A model generated the notes under the pieces. That model had not been told where the DNA came from, ran no database searches, and saw nothing but the letters and a program-made list of their open reading frames with translations. Made by a program: the position numbers and the translations under genes. DNA of 64,000 nt from a virus, in the IMG/VR virus record IMGVR_UViG_3300021389_000014, positions 1-64,000 of that record, one strand, 5' to 3'. Shown here piece by piece: positions 1,272 to 3,718 of the stretch (the first letter of the stretch is position 1; every line of letters starts with the position of its first letter).

Positions 1272-2123
1272 ATGTCTGAAAATCCACTATCATCACTATA
1301 TCGTTCAAAATCAAATTATGTATCTCTGCCAAGCAGAGGTAGATTTTACACAAGTGGGATAAAATTATCAATAGATGGAGAACTAGGTGTTATGCCTATG
1401 ACCATCAAAGACGAAATAGAGTTAAAATCGCCAGATTCTCTTTTCAATGGAACTGCTTTAATTAATGTTATAAAAAATTGTGCACCAGATATTGTTGATG
1501 TATCTGAAATACCAATTTGCGACATAGACTCTATTCTTTTTGCAATAAAAGCAGCAAGTGAAGAAAATATGGAAATAGAAGTAGAATGCAAATCATGTAA
1601 AGAAATAAACAGCTATAATTTGAATTTAAATCGCTATCTATATACTGCAAAGCAAATACCAGATGATAACACCATTATTCACGAAGATGGAATCGTATAT
1701 TTAAAACCTCATACGCTGGATACCGTGTCAAAGCAAAAAATACAAGATTTTAAAATTACTCAAATGGAAATGCAATTAAAAGATAAACTGTTAGAAGAAA
1801 ACAATAATGAAATTTTAAATGAAATAACAAATAATCTGAAAGTATTGTATAACGAAACAACAGAAATAACTATTGATATTATGGTCGATAGCATATACAA
1901 AATATCAATCCCATCAAAGGATATAGAAGTAGTAGATAAAAATCATATAAAAGAGTGGGTGTTGAATATCAATCGCGATTTAGTCAAAAATATAAACAAA
2001 AAGATAGGATCACTTAATAAAAATGGGATCAATAAAGAAATTGAAATGTCATGCACTAGCTGCGAAAATAAATTTAAATCTGAATTGGAGATAAATCCTT
2101 TAAATTTTTTCACAAACGAGTAA
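1272..2123 (+). CDS. Baseplate hub/tail assembly chaperone, T4 gp26-like
   Basis: N-terminal LPSRG, MTIKDE, two CxxC pairs (CKSC, CTSC), C-terminal NFF; AGGAG SD. Confidence 0.75.
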   Translation: MSENPLSSLYRSKSNYVSLPSRGRFYTSGIKLSIDGELGVMPMTIKDEIELKSPDSLFNGTALINVIKNCAPDIVDVSEIPICDIDSILFAIKAASEENMEIEVECKSCKEINSYNLNLNRYLYTAKQIPDDNTIIHEDGIVYLKPHTLDTVSKQKIQDFKITQMEMQLKDKLLEENNNEILNEITNNLKVLYNETTEITIDIMVDSIYKISIPSKDIEVVDKNHIKEWVLNINRDLVKNINKKIGSLNKNGINKEIEMSCTSCENKFKSELEINPLNFFTNE

Positions 2124-2128
2124 TCAAT

Positions 2129-2344
2129 ATGTACGGAAGTGAATTAAATTCGTTTCTTAATAATATGATTACTCAAAGAGAACAAATAAAGAAAAATATA
2201 ATCGATCTATCTATATATTCCAATGGTTCCATCAGACTCGAAGATATGTATAATCTTACAACTATAGATGTTGCCAATATTGAAAAGACAATATTGGAAA
2301 AAATAAAGATGGATAAAGGAATCAAATCACAACAAATGCTCTAA
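2129..2344 (+). CDS. Small gp51-like hub assembly protein (possibly the -1 frameshift extension of the upstream gene)
   Basis: Size and position after the gp26-like gene; poor SD; in the -1 frame behind a slippery run. Confidence 0.55.
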   Translation: MYGSELNSFLNNMITQREQIKKNIIDLSIYSNGSIRLEDMYNLTTIDVANIEKTILEKIKMDKGIKSQQML

Positions 2345-2362
2345 GATGTAAATCTCAAAAAC

Positions 2363-2595
2363 TCAATTAAGAAGAACTAAAAATAAAATCACTAGAAAAG
2401 TATTTTTTCTAGTGATTTTTGTTTATTGGTTACGTAGTAACCAATGTGCAGAATAACTAAAGAACATTATATCATAATAGCATAAGAGATACTTGTTCAT
2501 TTCATTCACAAGTATCTTTATGAATCATCTATATATTCACTACGCTTATGCTTCGTTCATATATAGATGATTCATTTATTGAGATTCTTAATTGA
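2363..2595. repeat. Cluster of four perfect inverted repeats (15, 9, 10 and 17 bp stems) enclosed by an 11-bp outer inverted repeat
   Basis: Stems 2385-2399/2405-2419, 2425-2433/2437-2445, 2487-2496/2508-2517, 2520-2536/2559-2575; outer 2363-2373/2585-2595. Confidence 0.85.
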
Positions 2596-2644
2596 TTAGA
2601 TATATGATTATATATTTGAATACTGTATAATATACAATATAAGA

Positions 2645-3127
2645 TAATGAATATCATTACCTTGGATTTTGAACACACTTTGCCTTCCGACGGGCAAAGC
2701 ATGTTCAGACTAGTGGTGTTATTACCTCATCATCATCACACTCTATACAGATCGACCATGTAACGTCTGGAAGAGGCGGTTATCCTGTACCTCTTTACGA
2801 TCTAACTTCCCTACTCAGTATTATTATTATAATACCTTTTGTGACAGCGCATCTCATTGTATAAAGCAGTATAGATTACCGTATACGAGAATGTAGGTTC
2901 CAAGTGATCAGGAGAGCCTACTCATTTTCAGGAGAGTCACCCCTGATACTTACAAGATTATATCTTGACAAAAAACGAACTTTCCGGAATTCTTTTCATC
3001 AGAAAGCACAACTTACCATTCCACTGGCTACGAGCATTACCTCGGCTAGATTTCGGCAGATAAAAAACATTATCATTTGCGTTGCTATATGTTTATAAAG
3101 GGTTCTGTGTTAGCCATATTAGTTATA
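2645..3127 (-). ncRNA. Candidate large structured non-coding RNA (~480 nt), family unassigned
   Basis: No credible ORF; own promoter at 3134-3162; several stems closed by G-U pairs only on the minus strand; four GGUAAU motifs. Boundaries approximate. Confidence 0.55.
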
Positions 3128-3133
3128 AGTTAA

Positions 3134-3162
3134 TTTATACCATATATAATGATTCGGGTCAA
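3134..3162 (-). promoter_or_regulatory. Sigma70-type promoter firing into the non-coding region
   Basis: TTGACC-17 nt-TATAAA(T) with TG extension. Confidence 0.7.
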
Positions 3163-3674
3163 GTCCTTTTACACATTTTTTCAAAAGAATTTGCATTTTT
3201 TTCAAAGAAATCTTCAAACTTAGTTAAACGCCAAGTTCCCCAATTTTCGGATTCATAATCTACAAATCTTCCACATTCAAAATCCTGTGGCAACTGATAA
3301 GCAACATAACGACCAATGTAATCAAATTTCATAAAAATTATGTTTACATCTCCCTCGTCAGATACTTCCATAGTTTGGTCTATGAAATTCTCTAAATCCG
3401 GTATACGGTCGGTAGATAACAATTTGTGAAATTGAAATTCCTTATAACGCTTACATTCACAATTAAAATGAATCCAATCGTCAGGAGGAACAATATCACC
3501 CTTGTGTGAGCGTATTTGTCCCTCTGTGAGCGTATTTTTTCTAGAGGAATTTTTACCCCCTATGTATGCGCCCGACGCCTGAATTCTATGAAAACTGTCA
3601 CTATATAAATCTGAAAGATACTTTGCTACTTCCCTCTCAAATCCACTGCCTTTAACTTTACTTTTACTTGCCAT
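3159..3674 (-). CDS. Holliday junction resolvase-like PD-(D/E)xK nuclease
   Basis: KGSGFEREVA...GDI...ECK motifs; start moved to MASKSK (3674), downstream of the terminator and late promoter. Confidence 0.75.
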   Translation of the reverse strand: MASKSKVKGSGFEREVAKYLSDLYSDSFHRIQASGAYIGGKNSSRKNTLTEGQIRSHKGDIVPPDDWIHFNCECKRYKEFQFHKLLSTDRIPDLENFIDQTMEVSDEGDVNIIFMKFDYIGRYVAYQLPQDFECGRFVDYESENWGTWRLTKFEDFFEKNANSFEKMCKRT

Positions 3675-3679
3675 ATAGT

Positions 3680-3687
3680 TATTTATA
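3680..3687 (-). promoter_or_regulatory. Late promoter TATAAATA, 5 nt before the ATG
   Basis: Perfect T4 late consensus. Confidence 0.75.
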
Positions 3688-3695
3688 TAGTTAAT

Positions 3696-3718
3696 AAAAA
3701 AGGGGCACAAAATGCCCC
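3696..3718 (-). terminator. Intrinsic terminator after gp46
   Basis: GGGGCA-TTTTG-TGCCCC followed by a T run on the minus strand. Confidence 0.75.

What the first reader, a model, noticed from the sequence alone, without database searches (positions are those of the whole stretch)
2645..3162. Promoter-driven ~480-nt structured non-coding RNA in the only large ORF-free gap
Seen: in a densely coding genome, 2345-3158 has no credible gene, yet a good sigma70 promoter (TTGACC-17-TATAAA, 3134-3162) fires into it on the minus strand. The predicted transcript carries many stems: 15-bp UGAACAUGCUUUGCC/GGCAAAGUGUGUUCA (2670-2707), AAGAGGU/GCCUCUU (2771-2795), GUAGG/CCUAC (2893-2921), UCAGGGG/CUCCUGA (2928-2946), CAAGAU/AUCUUG (2953-2967) and CGAG/CUCG (3031-3044). 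Their mismatches are G-U wobbles on the minus strand but A-C on the plus strand, which points to selection on a minus-strand RNA. Inference: a large ornate phage ncRNA. I cannot match it by eye to a tRNA, tmRNA, RNase P, intron, ROOL or GOLLD, so it may be a new class.
Basis: partly seen in the sequence, partly recalled or inferred. Interest (0 to 1): 0.9.

Follow-up and report, generated by a model that had tools for sequence, protein, structure and literature searches.

The report
Large structured RNA gene, jumbo phage
The only gene-free gap in this marine giant-phage fragment holds a real, roughly 480-base folded non-coding RNA that belongs to a widespread phage RNA family absent from the RNA catalogue; it usually follows a small nuclease gene, carries a 7-letter word written twice that always changes in both places together, and has no known job.

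Summary
Positions 2345-3158 are the only stretch of 250 nt or more in the window without an ORF of 70 aa or more. All six named stems exist, and their four mismatches are G-U on the minus strand.

A close relative (L199) is about 97% identical from 3143 to 2664. Its flanking genes are only about 75% identical, and identity falls to 45-65% below 2663. This marks out a discrete element of about 480 nt.

Two covariance models built without the window's clade match 2652-2808 (31.7 bits, E 8e-5) and 2774-2929 (40.6 bits, E 8e-7). The 278-nt core therefore belongs to a family seen in about 150-200 IMG/VR contigs. Helices in that family covary strongly. Rfam 15, ARAGORN and GenBank phage isolates give nothing.

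Family hallmarks:
- a GGUACNG-NNN-RACCGCC hairpin;
- a long hairpin flanked by two identical 7-nt words (AGGUAAU here; identical in 92-94 of 96 relatives), with no complementary partner found;
- a small nuclease gene directly upstream (GIY-YIG in 94 and PD-(D/E)xK in 9 of 132 loci).

The sigma70 promoter is conserved only in the window's clade. Function is unknown; a nuclease-linked RNA cofactor is my leading, weakly supported guess. This scan has already reported the same and sister RNAs on other DNA.

The parts
3134..3162 (-). Candidate sigma70-type promoter: TTGACC, 17-nt spacer, TATAAA, with TG at 3142-3141 (extended -10). The -35 box overlaps the stop of the nuclease gene. The predicted start near 3127 is an inference.
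   Evidence: Sequence read. Conserved in L199 (TTGACA-17-TATAAA) and L004 (TTGACA-17-TATATT). Not listed by the scanner. Not conserved across the wider family (2 of 124 loci).
2930..3127 (-). Lineage-specific 5' domain. Hairpins: CGAG/CUCG 3031-3044 (loop GUAAUG), a GCUUUC/GAAAGU stem around 2975-3008, CAAGAU/AUCUUG 2953-2967, and UCAGGGG/CUCCUGA 2928-2946.
   Evidence: About 97% identical in L199 and in contigs of runs X4/X5. Two of the roughly ten substitutions turn G-U into A-U (3007, 2941) and none breaks a predicted stem. L004 is not alignable here except for a compensated CAGG/CCUG to UCGG/CCGA hairpin. The GCCGAG-GUARUG-CUCG hairpin is shared with L274.
2774..2929 (-). Conserved central domain: AAAAUGAG, then stem GUAGG/CCUAC (2893-2921) enclosing GGCUCU...GGAACC, a hairpin with a conserved loop (2845-2885), GCGCUGUCAC, an AU-rich inserted hairpin, and GAAGUUAGAUCGUAA.
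   Evidence: CM R2, built from 24 relatives without the window clade: 40.6 bits, E 8.2e-7, full length. There are 3 compensatory pairs in GUAGG/CCUAC against L004 (GUGAA/UUCAC). The family stem covaries.
2775..2791 (-). Signature motif GGUACAGGAUAACCGCC inside the hairpin AAGAGGU/GCCUCUU (2771-2795): a 5-bp stem, a 3-nt ACM bulge, a GG/CC stem and an NNRA loop.
   Evidence: Motif positions are invariant or nearly so in 66 non-redundant relatives, which were recruited by this motif. The closing pair shows GC 59, UA 6 and CG 1; the next pair shows AU 40 and GU 26.
2652..2808 (-). Conserved 3' domain: helix AGAUCG/CGAUCU (about 2800-2805 with 2748-2753), the signature hairpin, UAUAGAGUGUGA, word 1, the long hairpin and word 2.
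   Evidence: CM R1, built from 66 relatives without the window clade: 31.7 bits, E 8e-5 on the window, full length. The same model gave 0 hits on 80 bacterial loci that carry the 18-nt motif by chance.
2721..2727 (-). Word 1, AGGUAAU.
   Evidence: It is the same word in L199 and L004. In the family the homologous word is NGAURAW and is identical to word 2.
2670..2707 (-). 15-bp hairpin UGAACAUGCUUUGCC / GGCAAAGUGUGUUCA with loop CGUCGGAA, lying between the two words.
   Evidence: All 15 positions pair and 2 are G-U. L004 keeps it, with U-A changed to C-G and G-U changed to or from A-U or C-G. In the family helix, 5 of 8 pairs show changes on both sides.
2656..2662 (-). Word 2, AGGUAAU. Identity with L199 collapses immediately downstream of it.
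2576..2651 (-). Very AT-rich, fast-evolving linker.
   Evidence: 45-57% identity to L199, with a 31-nt deletion there.
2385..2575 (-). 3' trailer of hairpins: HP1 2520-2575 (loop GAACGAAGCAUAAGCGUAGUGA), HP2 2487-2518, HP3 2426-2446, and a bidirectional terminator-like hairpin at 2385-2419 followed by a U-run.
   Evidence: The TGAACGAAG motif and a c(GNA/GNRA)g hairpin followed by U-rich sequence (UUUUAAUAU) recur at the same relative place in distant relatives. Whether this is part of the mature RNA is unknown.
3159..3710 (-). Upstream same-strand gene: a small PD-(D/E)xK nuclease (183 aa).
   Evidence: PF24608 at 2.3e-22; phrog_244.

Best explanation
Shown: window 3127-2652 (minus strand) is a gene for a folded non-coding RNA of about 480 nt.

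Its 3' 278 nt (2929-2652) is a divergent, AT-rich member of a large family of structured RNAs of uncultivated T4-like jumbo phages. No Rfam model covers this family.

The family core has five parts:
- a three-way element, AAAUG-stem-GGCUCU...AACC-stem;
- a hairpin with a conserved loop;
- the invariant GGUACNG-NNN-RACCGCC bulged hairpin, closed by a covarying helix;
- a long hairpin;
- on either side of that hairpin, two copies of one 7-nt purine-rich word. The word differs between lineages but is the same in both places.

Inferred: in this clade the RNA is made from its own early sigma70-type promoter. It is also made by read-through from the nuclease gene just upstream. Transcription ends in the hairpin and terminator cluster at 2385-2575.

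Most likely mechanism (inference, about 30% likely): a trans-acting RNA partner, either a cofactor or a regulator, of the small structure-specific nuclease encoded directly upstream. On this reading the twin words are the specificity elements, read by a partner that is dimeric or occurs twice.

The confidence given below is for the shown part: a real ncRNA gene that belongs to this family.
For: (1) Discrete conserved block. Against L199, and against contigs from two further studies, identity is 90-100% from 3143 to 2664. It is 50-90% in the flanking genes and 45-65% below 2663.

(2) Not coding. No ORF of 70 aa or more lies in the gap. The 57-aa and 64-aa ORFs are broken in L199 by a 31-nt and a 1-nt deletion.

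(3) Compensatory changes against L004 in four stems.

(4) Independent CMs hit the window at full length, at E 8e-5 and 8e-7. The negative control on 80 chance motif sites gave 0 hits.

(5) Family covariation. In A2, 97.3% of cells are paired against 88.3% in shuffles, and 83 cells show changes on both sides against 19.8 (0 of 500 shuffles). In A3 the figures are 97.5%, and 22 against 7.2.

(6) Strand. G-U is frequent in the family: AU 40 and GU 26 at one pair, and UG invariant at another. The window has four G-U pairs.

(7) Twin words. In 96 loci chosen only by their upstream ORF, the two variable purine positions are identical in 92 and 94 loci (MI about 1 bit). In the window an otherwise invariant A is G in both copies.

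(8) Nuclease link. Among 132 family loci with enough upstream DNA, the gene directly upstream on the same strand is a ~145-aa GIY-YIG-only protein in 94 and a PD-(D/E)xK protein in 9. These are two unrelated folds at one position. Most relatives also lack a promoter of their own, which implies co-transcription.
Against: There are no expression data.

The fold z-score is only -2.2 and is equal on both strands.

The family was recruited with a motif taken from the window clade, so membership is partly circular. The full-length CM hits and the negative control mitigate this.

The 5' ~200 nt has almost no independent homologues.

Against the nuclease-partner idea:
- Adjacency may be inherited synteny, with non-orthologous replacement of a resolvase.
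- 22% of loci have another gene upstream.
- No complementary partner of the words was found within about 450 nt either side of the signature motif, or within +-7 kb.
- A phage's own word is neither depleted nor enriched in its flanks: 88 against 83, and 55 against 57.
- Seven nucleotides is too short for a unique guide.
Confidence: 0.85

Rival explanations
1. RNA-primed replication origin. The promoter-driven structured transcript would form a persistent R-loop in the AT-rich tract (2576-2651), and the hairpin cluster would prime leading-strand synthesis. The models are ColE1 RNA II and T4 oriF/oriG, and T4 oriF lies in uvsY next to genes 25-26-51.
For: The layout fits: a promoter, then a structured RNA, then a very AT-rich stretch, then hairpins with c(GNA)g-type loops. 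The locus sits beside gp26/gp51-like hub genes, and in 105 of 165 motif-carrying loci with enough downstream sequence the hub gene is convergent downstream. It also lies at the end of the recombination operon. The T4 parallel comes from my own knowledge.
Against: The AT-rich tract and hairpins evolve fast, while the RNA core is under extreme constraint, with invariant single-stranded nucleotides. That pattern is atypical for a mere primer. No iterons or initiator gene were seen. No promoter is conserved across the family. An earlier agent found no origin marks on a look-alike stretch in another genome (unchecked).
Confidence: 0.1
2. A cis-acting 3' untranslated element of the gp47-gp46-nuclease operon. 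It would act as an mRNA stabiliser, an exonuclease block, a processing site, or an insulator between convergent transcription units, and would have no trans function.
For: It lies directly after the last gene of the operon on the same strand. Most relatives lack a recognisable promoter of their own. Terminator-like hairpins follow it.
Against: A 280-nt core with several covarying helices, invariant loops and identity-coupled words across roughly 150-200 contigs is far more than a stabiliser needs. The window clade keeps a dedicated promoter. The RNA is more conserved than the gene it would serve.
Confidence: 0.12
3. RNA-only homo-oligomeric assembly of unknown role, as cryo-EM showed for GOLLD, ROOL and OLE.
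For: The size, the ornate multi-helix fold, the phage setting and the lack of a protein-like partner signal all fit. The precedent is PMC12286853, which I saw only in abstract.
Against: There is no sequence or model similarity to those families. No palindromic kissing loop was identified. Identity-coupled words are not what an isologous RNA-RNA interface predicts.
Confidence: 0.15
4. Not an RNA gene at all. It would be a decayed protein gene, a DNA-level site (pac or recombination site, or iterons), or the conserved target of the neighbouring homing-type endonuclease.
For: Small GIY-YIG genes are often homing endonucleases that sit beside conserved targets. The two identical words could be DNA repeats.
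Against: G-U wobble pairs are strand-specific and frequent. Compensatory changes keep the helices. There is no conserved reading frame, and indels are not multiples of three.
Confidence: 0.04

Closest known systems
GOLLD (RF01998) and ROOL (RF03087) large ornate RNAs
   Same: Both are several-hundred-nucleotide, multi-helix, highly conserved non-coding RNAs carried by phages or prophages, with no known biochemical function.
   Different: No Rfam model matches the window or ten related loci. The size here is 480 nt, against about 580-800 nt. The hallmarks differ: the GGUACNG...ACCGCC hairpin, the twin identical words, and a fixed site after a small nuclease gene in T4-like jumbo phages.
The ~350-nt 'resolvase-downstream' RNA of freshwater jumbo phages
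   Same: It has the same genomic slot, immediately after the PF24608 nuclease gene and convergent with the hub genes. It has the same strand and the same kind of downstream GAACGAAG/terminator hairpins. There are motif-level resemblances: GGGC(A/U)(A/C)U...AACCC stem, GCGUUGCUGA against GCGCUGUCAC, and UACAGAGCAACCG against UACAGGAUAACCG (by eye).
   Different: Its HMM does not hit the window, L004 or L199. My two CMs do not hit its loci. Homology is therefore unproven. It may be a sister family or a positional analogue.
HEARO / IscB omega-RNA and TnpB reRNA (nuclease-associated guide RNAs)
   Same: Each is a large structured RNA encoded next to, and probably co-transcribed with, a small nuclease gene. 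Each has a short segment that varies between lineages.
   Different: The nucleases here are PD-(D/E)xK or GIY-YIG, not RuvC/HNH. There are no transposon ends. The variable segment is only 7 nt and is duplicated. No self-avoidance or nearby target was found. There is no Rfam match.
ColE1 RNA II / T4 oriF origin transcripts
   Same: A promoter-driven structured transcript is followed by an AT-rich, easily melted tract.
   Different: No origin function has been shown. The core conservation pattern resembles that of a functional RNA rather than a primer.

Membership tests
Uncatalogued jumbo-phage RNA family with the GGUACNG-NNN-RACCGCC hairpin (defined here; alignments A2 and A3) | 3' domain: signature hairpin, long hairpin and flanking modules, scored by a covariance model built without the window clade. 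| tested here: met
   R1: window 2652-2808 minus, 31.7 bits, E 8e-5, model positions 1-142 of 142. L199 scored 32.1 and L004 20.5. There were 0 hits on 80 chance motif loci.
Uncatalogued jumbo-phage RNA family with the GGUACNG-NNN-RACCGCC hairpin (defined here; alignments A2 and A3) | Central domain: AAAUG-stem-GGCUCU...AACC-stem, hairpin, CCGUUG-like strand. | tested here: met
   R2: window 2774-2929 minus, 40.6 bits, E 8.2e-7, full length.
Uncatalogued jumbo-phage RNA family with the GGUACNG-NNN-RACCGCC hairpin (defined here; alignments A2 and A3) | The same 7-nt word on both sides of the long hairpin, about 50-65 nt apart. | tested here: met
   AGGUAAU at 2721-2727 and 2656-2662. In the family, the words are identical at the two variable purine positions (scored separately) in 92 and 94 of 96 loci.
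Uncatalogued jumbo-phage RNA family with the GGUACNG-NNN-RACCGCC hairpin (defined here; alignments A2 and A3) | A small nuclease gene directly upstream on the same strand, and a baseplate-hub gene convergent downstream. | tested here: met
   In the window: PF24608 nuclease at 3159-3710 and PF12322 hub at 1272-2123. In the family: 103 of 132 loci have a nuclease, and 105 of 165 motif-carrying loci with enough downstream sequence have the hub gene.
~350-nt resolvase-downstream RNA of freshwater jumbo phages (earlier scan findings) | Sequence-profile or CM similarity to its conserved blocks (CCUCCUUGAGG, ACCGAGAGGGCAAUCG, ACUUUACAGAGCAACCGG, GGUAGUGCU hairpin). | tested here: not met
   nhmmer with a 34-sequence profile found no hit in the window, L004 or L199. 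R1 and R2 do not hit its loci. Only synteny and by-eye motif resemblance remain.
Any Rfam 15 family (GOLLD, ROOL, OLE, HEARO, raiA, RNase P, tmRNA, group I/II introns, 6S, riboswitches) | A covariance-model score at or above the gathering threshold. | tested here: not met
   There were 0 matches in the whole window. The best E-value-mode hits are hairpin matches to miRNA models at 25 bits against a cutoff of 90. There were 0 matches in ten related loci.
tRNA / tmRNA | ARAGORN cloverleaf, or tRNA-like domain plus tag. | tested here: not met
   0 genes in the window.
Nuclease guide RNAs (OMEGA/HEARO type) | An adjacent RuvC/HNH nuclease; a guide of 12 nt or more matching targets; transposon ends. 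| tested here: not met
   The nuclease is PD-(D/E)xK or GIY-YIG. The variable word is 7 nt. No target enrichment or self-avoidance was seen. Transposon ends were not examined.
RNA-primed origin (ColE1 RNA II / T4 oriF type) | A persistent R-loop at a DNA-unwinding element, and initiation of DNA synthesis. | not testable with these tools
   Only the layout (promoter, RNA, AT-rich tract 2576-2651) can be seen.

The most novel reading that the evidence does not exclude
The RNA and the small nuclease encoded just upstream (PD-(D/E)xK here, GIY-YIG in most relatives) form a previously unknown phage ribonucleoprotein. In it, a large structured RNA supplies specificity or regulation to a minimal nuclease that lacks a DNA-binding domain. 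The two identical, rapidly co-varying 7-nt words would read a two-fold symmetric or duplicated nucleic-acid partner, for example the homologous arms of a recombination intermediate.
Probability: 0.15. Interest if true: 0.92.

Novelty: new variant of a known kind. Interest (0 to 1): 0.78.

Why it matters
Large, intricately folded RNAs without a known job are rare. Each one solved so far (RNase P, group II introns, HEARO/IscB omega-RNA) opened new biochemistry.

This family is abundant in uncultivated aquatic jumbo phages. It is more conserved than the proteins around it, and it sits at a fixed place between the recombination genes and the baseplate-hub genes.

Two features make it experimentally tractable. 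First, it is tightly linked to two unrelated minimal nucleases. Second, a pair of words is kept identical while changing between lineages, which is a form of covariation that ordinary base pairing does not explain.

The window adds a divergent marine, AT-rich branch. This branch has its own sigma70 promoter, an extra 5' domain, and a word that changes an otherwise invariant position in both copies.

Tried and rejected
- **Rfam.** Gathering and E-value modes on the window and on related loci gave nothing usable.
- **ARAGORN.** No genes.
- **GenBank phage isolates.** blastn with the gap and with two family cores found no match.
- **Wasted collection scans.** The 14-mer TCTGTATAGAGTGT, and the signature motif typed with the wrong spacer length NNNN, returned only chance hits. 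Loci L085-L198 and L279-L494 are junk.
- **Genome-contig scan with the correct motif.** Of the 120 hits, the 80 listed were tested with R1 and none scored. Presence in bacteria was therefore neither shown nor excluded.
- **nhmmer with the freshwater-type profile.** No hit in the window clade.
- **Expression.** No RNA holder was listed for the stretch. Read laying gave DNA contigs only, so it gave no information on starts, ends or strand.
- **Complementary partner for the twin words.** I tried mutual information over 630 aligned nt, G-U-tolerant complement scans about 450 nt either side of the signature motif, and exact complement scans in the flanks of about 7 kb. Nothing was consistent.
- **Self-avoidance of a phage's own word.** Not seen.
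- **Ideas considered and dropped:**
  - T4 gene-60-type translational bypass. The words read as a sense codon plus UAA/UGA and lie about 50-60 nt apart, but the second word is also followed by a stop and there is no ORF.
  - A mini-CRISPR array. The modules are only about 60% alike outside the word.
  - A two-state switch in which the hairpin's 5' strand pairs with either module. This is possible in the window but not conserved.
  - A purine-motif triplex with the hairpin. There is no covariation with the stem.
  - RNase P or tmRNA likeness of the freshwater type. These were by-eye resemblances only.
- **Complex prediction.** Not used, because it does not take RNA.

Full report
**Setting.**
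- The window is the first 64 kb of a 74-kb IMG/VR virus record that CheckV rates about 20% complete, so it is a jumbo phage.
- Contigs holding the stretch come from seawater metagenomes.
- On the minus strand lie SbcD- and SbcC-like genes (gp47/gp46 equivalents) and a 183-aa gene at 3159-3710. PHROGs calls that gene RusA-like, but it matches Pfam PF24608, 'phage putative PDDEXK endonuclease', at 2.3e-22.
- On the plus strand, converging on it, are a T4-baseplate-hub-like gene (1272-2123, PF12322) and a 71-aa ORF (2129-2344).
- The 814 nt between them (2345-3158) is the only stretch of 250 nt or more in the whole window without an ORF of 70 aa or more.

**Checking the observation.**
- The promoter TTGACC-17-TATAAA (3162-3134) is there and has an upstream TG (extended -10). 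I read this.
- The consensus scanner skipped it because the final -10 base is A.
Four pairs are G-U on the minus strand and would be A-C on the plus strand.
- Thermodynamics alone is weak: z = -2.2 on either strand.
- Rfam gives nothing at gathering thresholds for the whole window. Relaxed thresholds give only chance hairpin matches. ARAGORN finds no tRNA or tmRNA.

**Close relatives mark out the element.**
- A search with the nuclease protein found two close relatives. L004 is a 317-kb IMG/VR contig with 75% protein identity. L199 is a 3.3-kb metagenome contig with 78% protein identity.
- Against L199, flanking coding DNA is 50-90% identical. The block from 3143 to 2664 is 90-100% identical (about 97%). 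Identity then drops abruptly to 45-65%, with a 31-nt deletion.
- Contigs from two other studies carry the same variant. They show about 10 substitutions in about 500 nt of RNA, against more than 30 in the next 140 nt of the nuclease gene.
- The block runs from just downstream of the -35 box (through the spacer and -10) to the second 'word'.
- The deletions in L199 break the only small ORFs in the gap, so the region is not coding.
- Two of the roughly ten substitutions turn G-U into A-U in predicted stems, and none breaks a stem.
- L004 is diverged enough to test pairing:
  - GUAGG/CCUAC becomes GUGAA/UUCAC, with three compensatory pairs.
  - AGAGGU/GCCUCU becomes UAAGGU/GCCUUA.
  - The 15-bp hairpin keeps pairing, through U-A to C-G and G-U to A-U or C-G changes.
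  - AGAUCG/CGAUCU loses one base on each side.
- The promoter is kept in both relatives: TTGACA-17-TATAAA and TTGACA-17-TATATT.

**A large family.**
- About 60 of the 80 IMG/VR loci found with the nuclease show the same synteny, with a 650-900-nt ORF-poor gap.
- 116 of all 160 loci carry, right after the nuclease gene, a strongly conserved ~350-nt RNA with obvious covarying hairpins. It has no Rfam match. Earlier agents of this scan have repeatedly reported this freshwater type.
- Its profile does not hit the window clade.
- The loci without it hold other gap sequences, and several of these share blocks with the window.
- The sharpest shared block is GGUAC(A/C)G-NNN-(A/G)ACCGCC. About 150-190 of them are true members by further features.
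- I built two covariance models from non-redundant relatives, leaving out the window, L004 and L199:
  - R1 covers the 3' domain (66 sequences, 142 positions). It matches window 2652-2808 at full length with 31.7 bits, E 8e-5.
  - R2 covers the central domain (24 sequences, 121 positions). It matches 2774-2929 with 40.6 bits, E 8e-7.
- As a control, 80 bacterial loci that contain the 18-nt motif by chance gave no R1 hit.
- Neither model hits the freshwater-type loci. That RNA is a positional counterpart whose homology I could not show. By eye the two share an ordered set of short motifs.
- Family helices covary:
  - On A2, 97.3% of cells pair against 88.3% in shuffles, and against 37-58% when partners are slid. 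83 cells show changes on both sides against 19.8 (0 of 500 shuffles).
  - On A3, 97.5% of cells pair, with 22 cells showing changes on both sides against 7.2.
- The abundance of G-U (for example AU 40 and GU 26 at one pair) fixes the RNA strand as that of the nuclease gene.

**The twin words.**
- On each side of the long 3' hairpin sits a module [AAGUGUGA - about 9 nt - YCU - word].
- The word is NGAURAW in most relatives: AGAUAAU, GGAUGAU, GGAUAAU, AGAUGAA, GCAUAAU and others.
- I took 96 loci selected only by having the GIY-YIG ORF upstream. The two variable purine positions were identical between the copies in 92 and 94 loci (mutual information about 1 bit). No other column within 630 nt reached 0.4 bit.
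- In the window both copies read AGGUAAU, so an otherwise invariant A is G in both.
- RGGTAAT occurs only 8 times on both strands of the 64-kb window, where shuffles give 18 +- 4. Three of those are inside the RNA.
- I found no complementary partner:
  - not within about 450 nt either side of the signature motif, even allowing G-U;
  - not in the ~7-kb flanks;
  - and a phage's own word is neither avoided nor enriched in its flanks.
- Identity coupling is not what intramolecular pairing gives. It suggests that one external reader meets both copies.

**Neighbours and transcription.**
- Among 132 family members with enough upstream sequence, the gene directly upstream on the same strand is:
  - a ~145-aa protein that is only a GIY-YIG domain (PF19835, about 1e-36) in 94;
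  - a PF24608 PD-(D/E)xK protein in 9;
  - something else in 29.
- The hub gene is convergent downstream in 105 of 165 motif-carrying loci with enough downstream sequence.
- A strict sigma70-type promoter at the end of the upstream ORF occurs in only 2 of 124 family loci (background 1.9%).
- The dedicated promoter is therefore a feature of the window clade. In most relatives the RNA is probably co-transcribed with the nuclease gene, or uses a promoter type I did not model.
- Downstream of the core come a fast-evolving AT-rich linker and hairpins. Their motifs (GAACGAAG..., and a c(GNA/GNRA)g hairpin followed by U-rich sequence) recur in distant relatives. These are probably the terminator region.

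**What it does.** Nothing here shows function.
- The pattern is a core more conserved than the neighbouring proteins, invariant unpaired nucleotides, several covarying helices, and a lineage-specific specificity-like word. This is the pattern of a trans-acting functional RNA, not of a terminator or a primer.
- The strongest contextual clue is the recurrent pairing with two unrelated minimal nucleases, in what looks like one transcription unit.
- I therefore rank 'RNA partner or regulator of the adjacent structure-specific nuclease' first, at about 30%. Inherited synteny with non-orthologous replacement of a resolvase explains the same data.
- The rivals are an RNA-only assembly like GOLLD/ROOL, a cis-acting 3' element, and an RNA-primed origin. 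The T4 oriF parallel for the last comes from my own knowledge. None can be excluded without experiments.

**Novelty.**
- I found no description in Rfam 15 or in the paper library, and no copy in GenBank phage isolates.
- Within this scan the family, or its sister, has been reported several times on other genomes. The present window is a new, divergent, marine member rather than a first sighting.

Noticed in passing
The PHROG label 'RusA-like' looks like a misnomer. In most relatives of the RNA the same slot is filled by a ~145-aa GIY-YIG-only protein, whose PHROG (phrog_447) is labelled 'NAD synthetase'.
   Followed up: partly
window, whole; RGGTAAT sites at 2656, 2721, 3036 (-) and five others: RGGTAAT, counted on both strands, occurs 8 times in 64 kb against 18 +- 4 expected from dinucleotide shuffles, and three of the eight are inside the RNA. 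Outside the RNA the word and its complement look under-represented in this genome. A pooled test on relatives' flanks showed no such avoidance.
   Followed up: partly
window 2520-2575 (-), and the same relative place in L004, L006, L020, L022, L203, L237, L274: Downstream of the RNA core there is a conserved hairpin whose loop reads GA-GC(G)-NNNN-GC-GAA (in the window, GAACGAAGCAUAAGCGUAGUGA). It is followed by a perfect hairpin with a c(GNA/GNRA)g loop. It is conserved across subfamilies that otherwise share no alignable sequence. It could be a processing or terminator signal, or a protein site.
   Followed up: partly
L004:4590-4640 (+): In L004, the part corresponding to the window's 5' domain contains three tandem copies of TAACATTTAAC that are absent from the window.
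   Followed up: no
window 3702-3718: A GC-rich bidirectional terminator-like hairpin (GGGGCACAAAATGCCCC plus T-run) sits between the SbcC-like gene and the nuclease gene, and overlaps the listed TTG start of the latter. The nuclease gene and RNA may therefore form a transcription unit separate from gp47/gp46, and the true start of the nuclease gene is probably further downstream.
   Followed up: no
loci L019-L083 and L208-L277, first ~370 nt after the nuclease gene: The freshwater-type ~350-nt RNA (116 of 160 loci) has very strong conservation and covarying hairpins and no Rfam match. Some type-2 members (L030, L250, L259, L274) combine its 5' motif CCNNUUGAGG...GGAUCUUGGG with the window-type 3' core. 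This hints that the two families are related or mosaic.
   Followed up: partly
window 2099-2131: An earlier first-reader note proposes a -1 frameshift joining the hub-like gene to the 71-aa ORF 2129-2344. The 71-aa ORF is conserved in L004 (about 51% identity by tblastn). I did not examine the frameshift.
   Followed up: no
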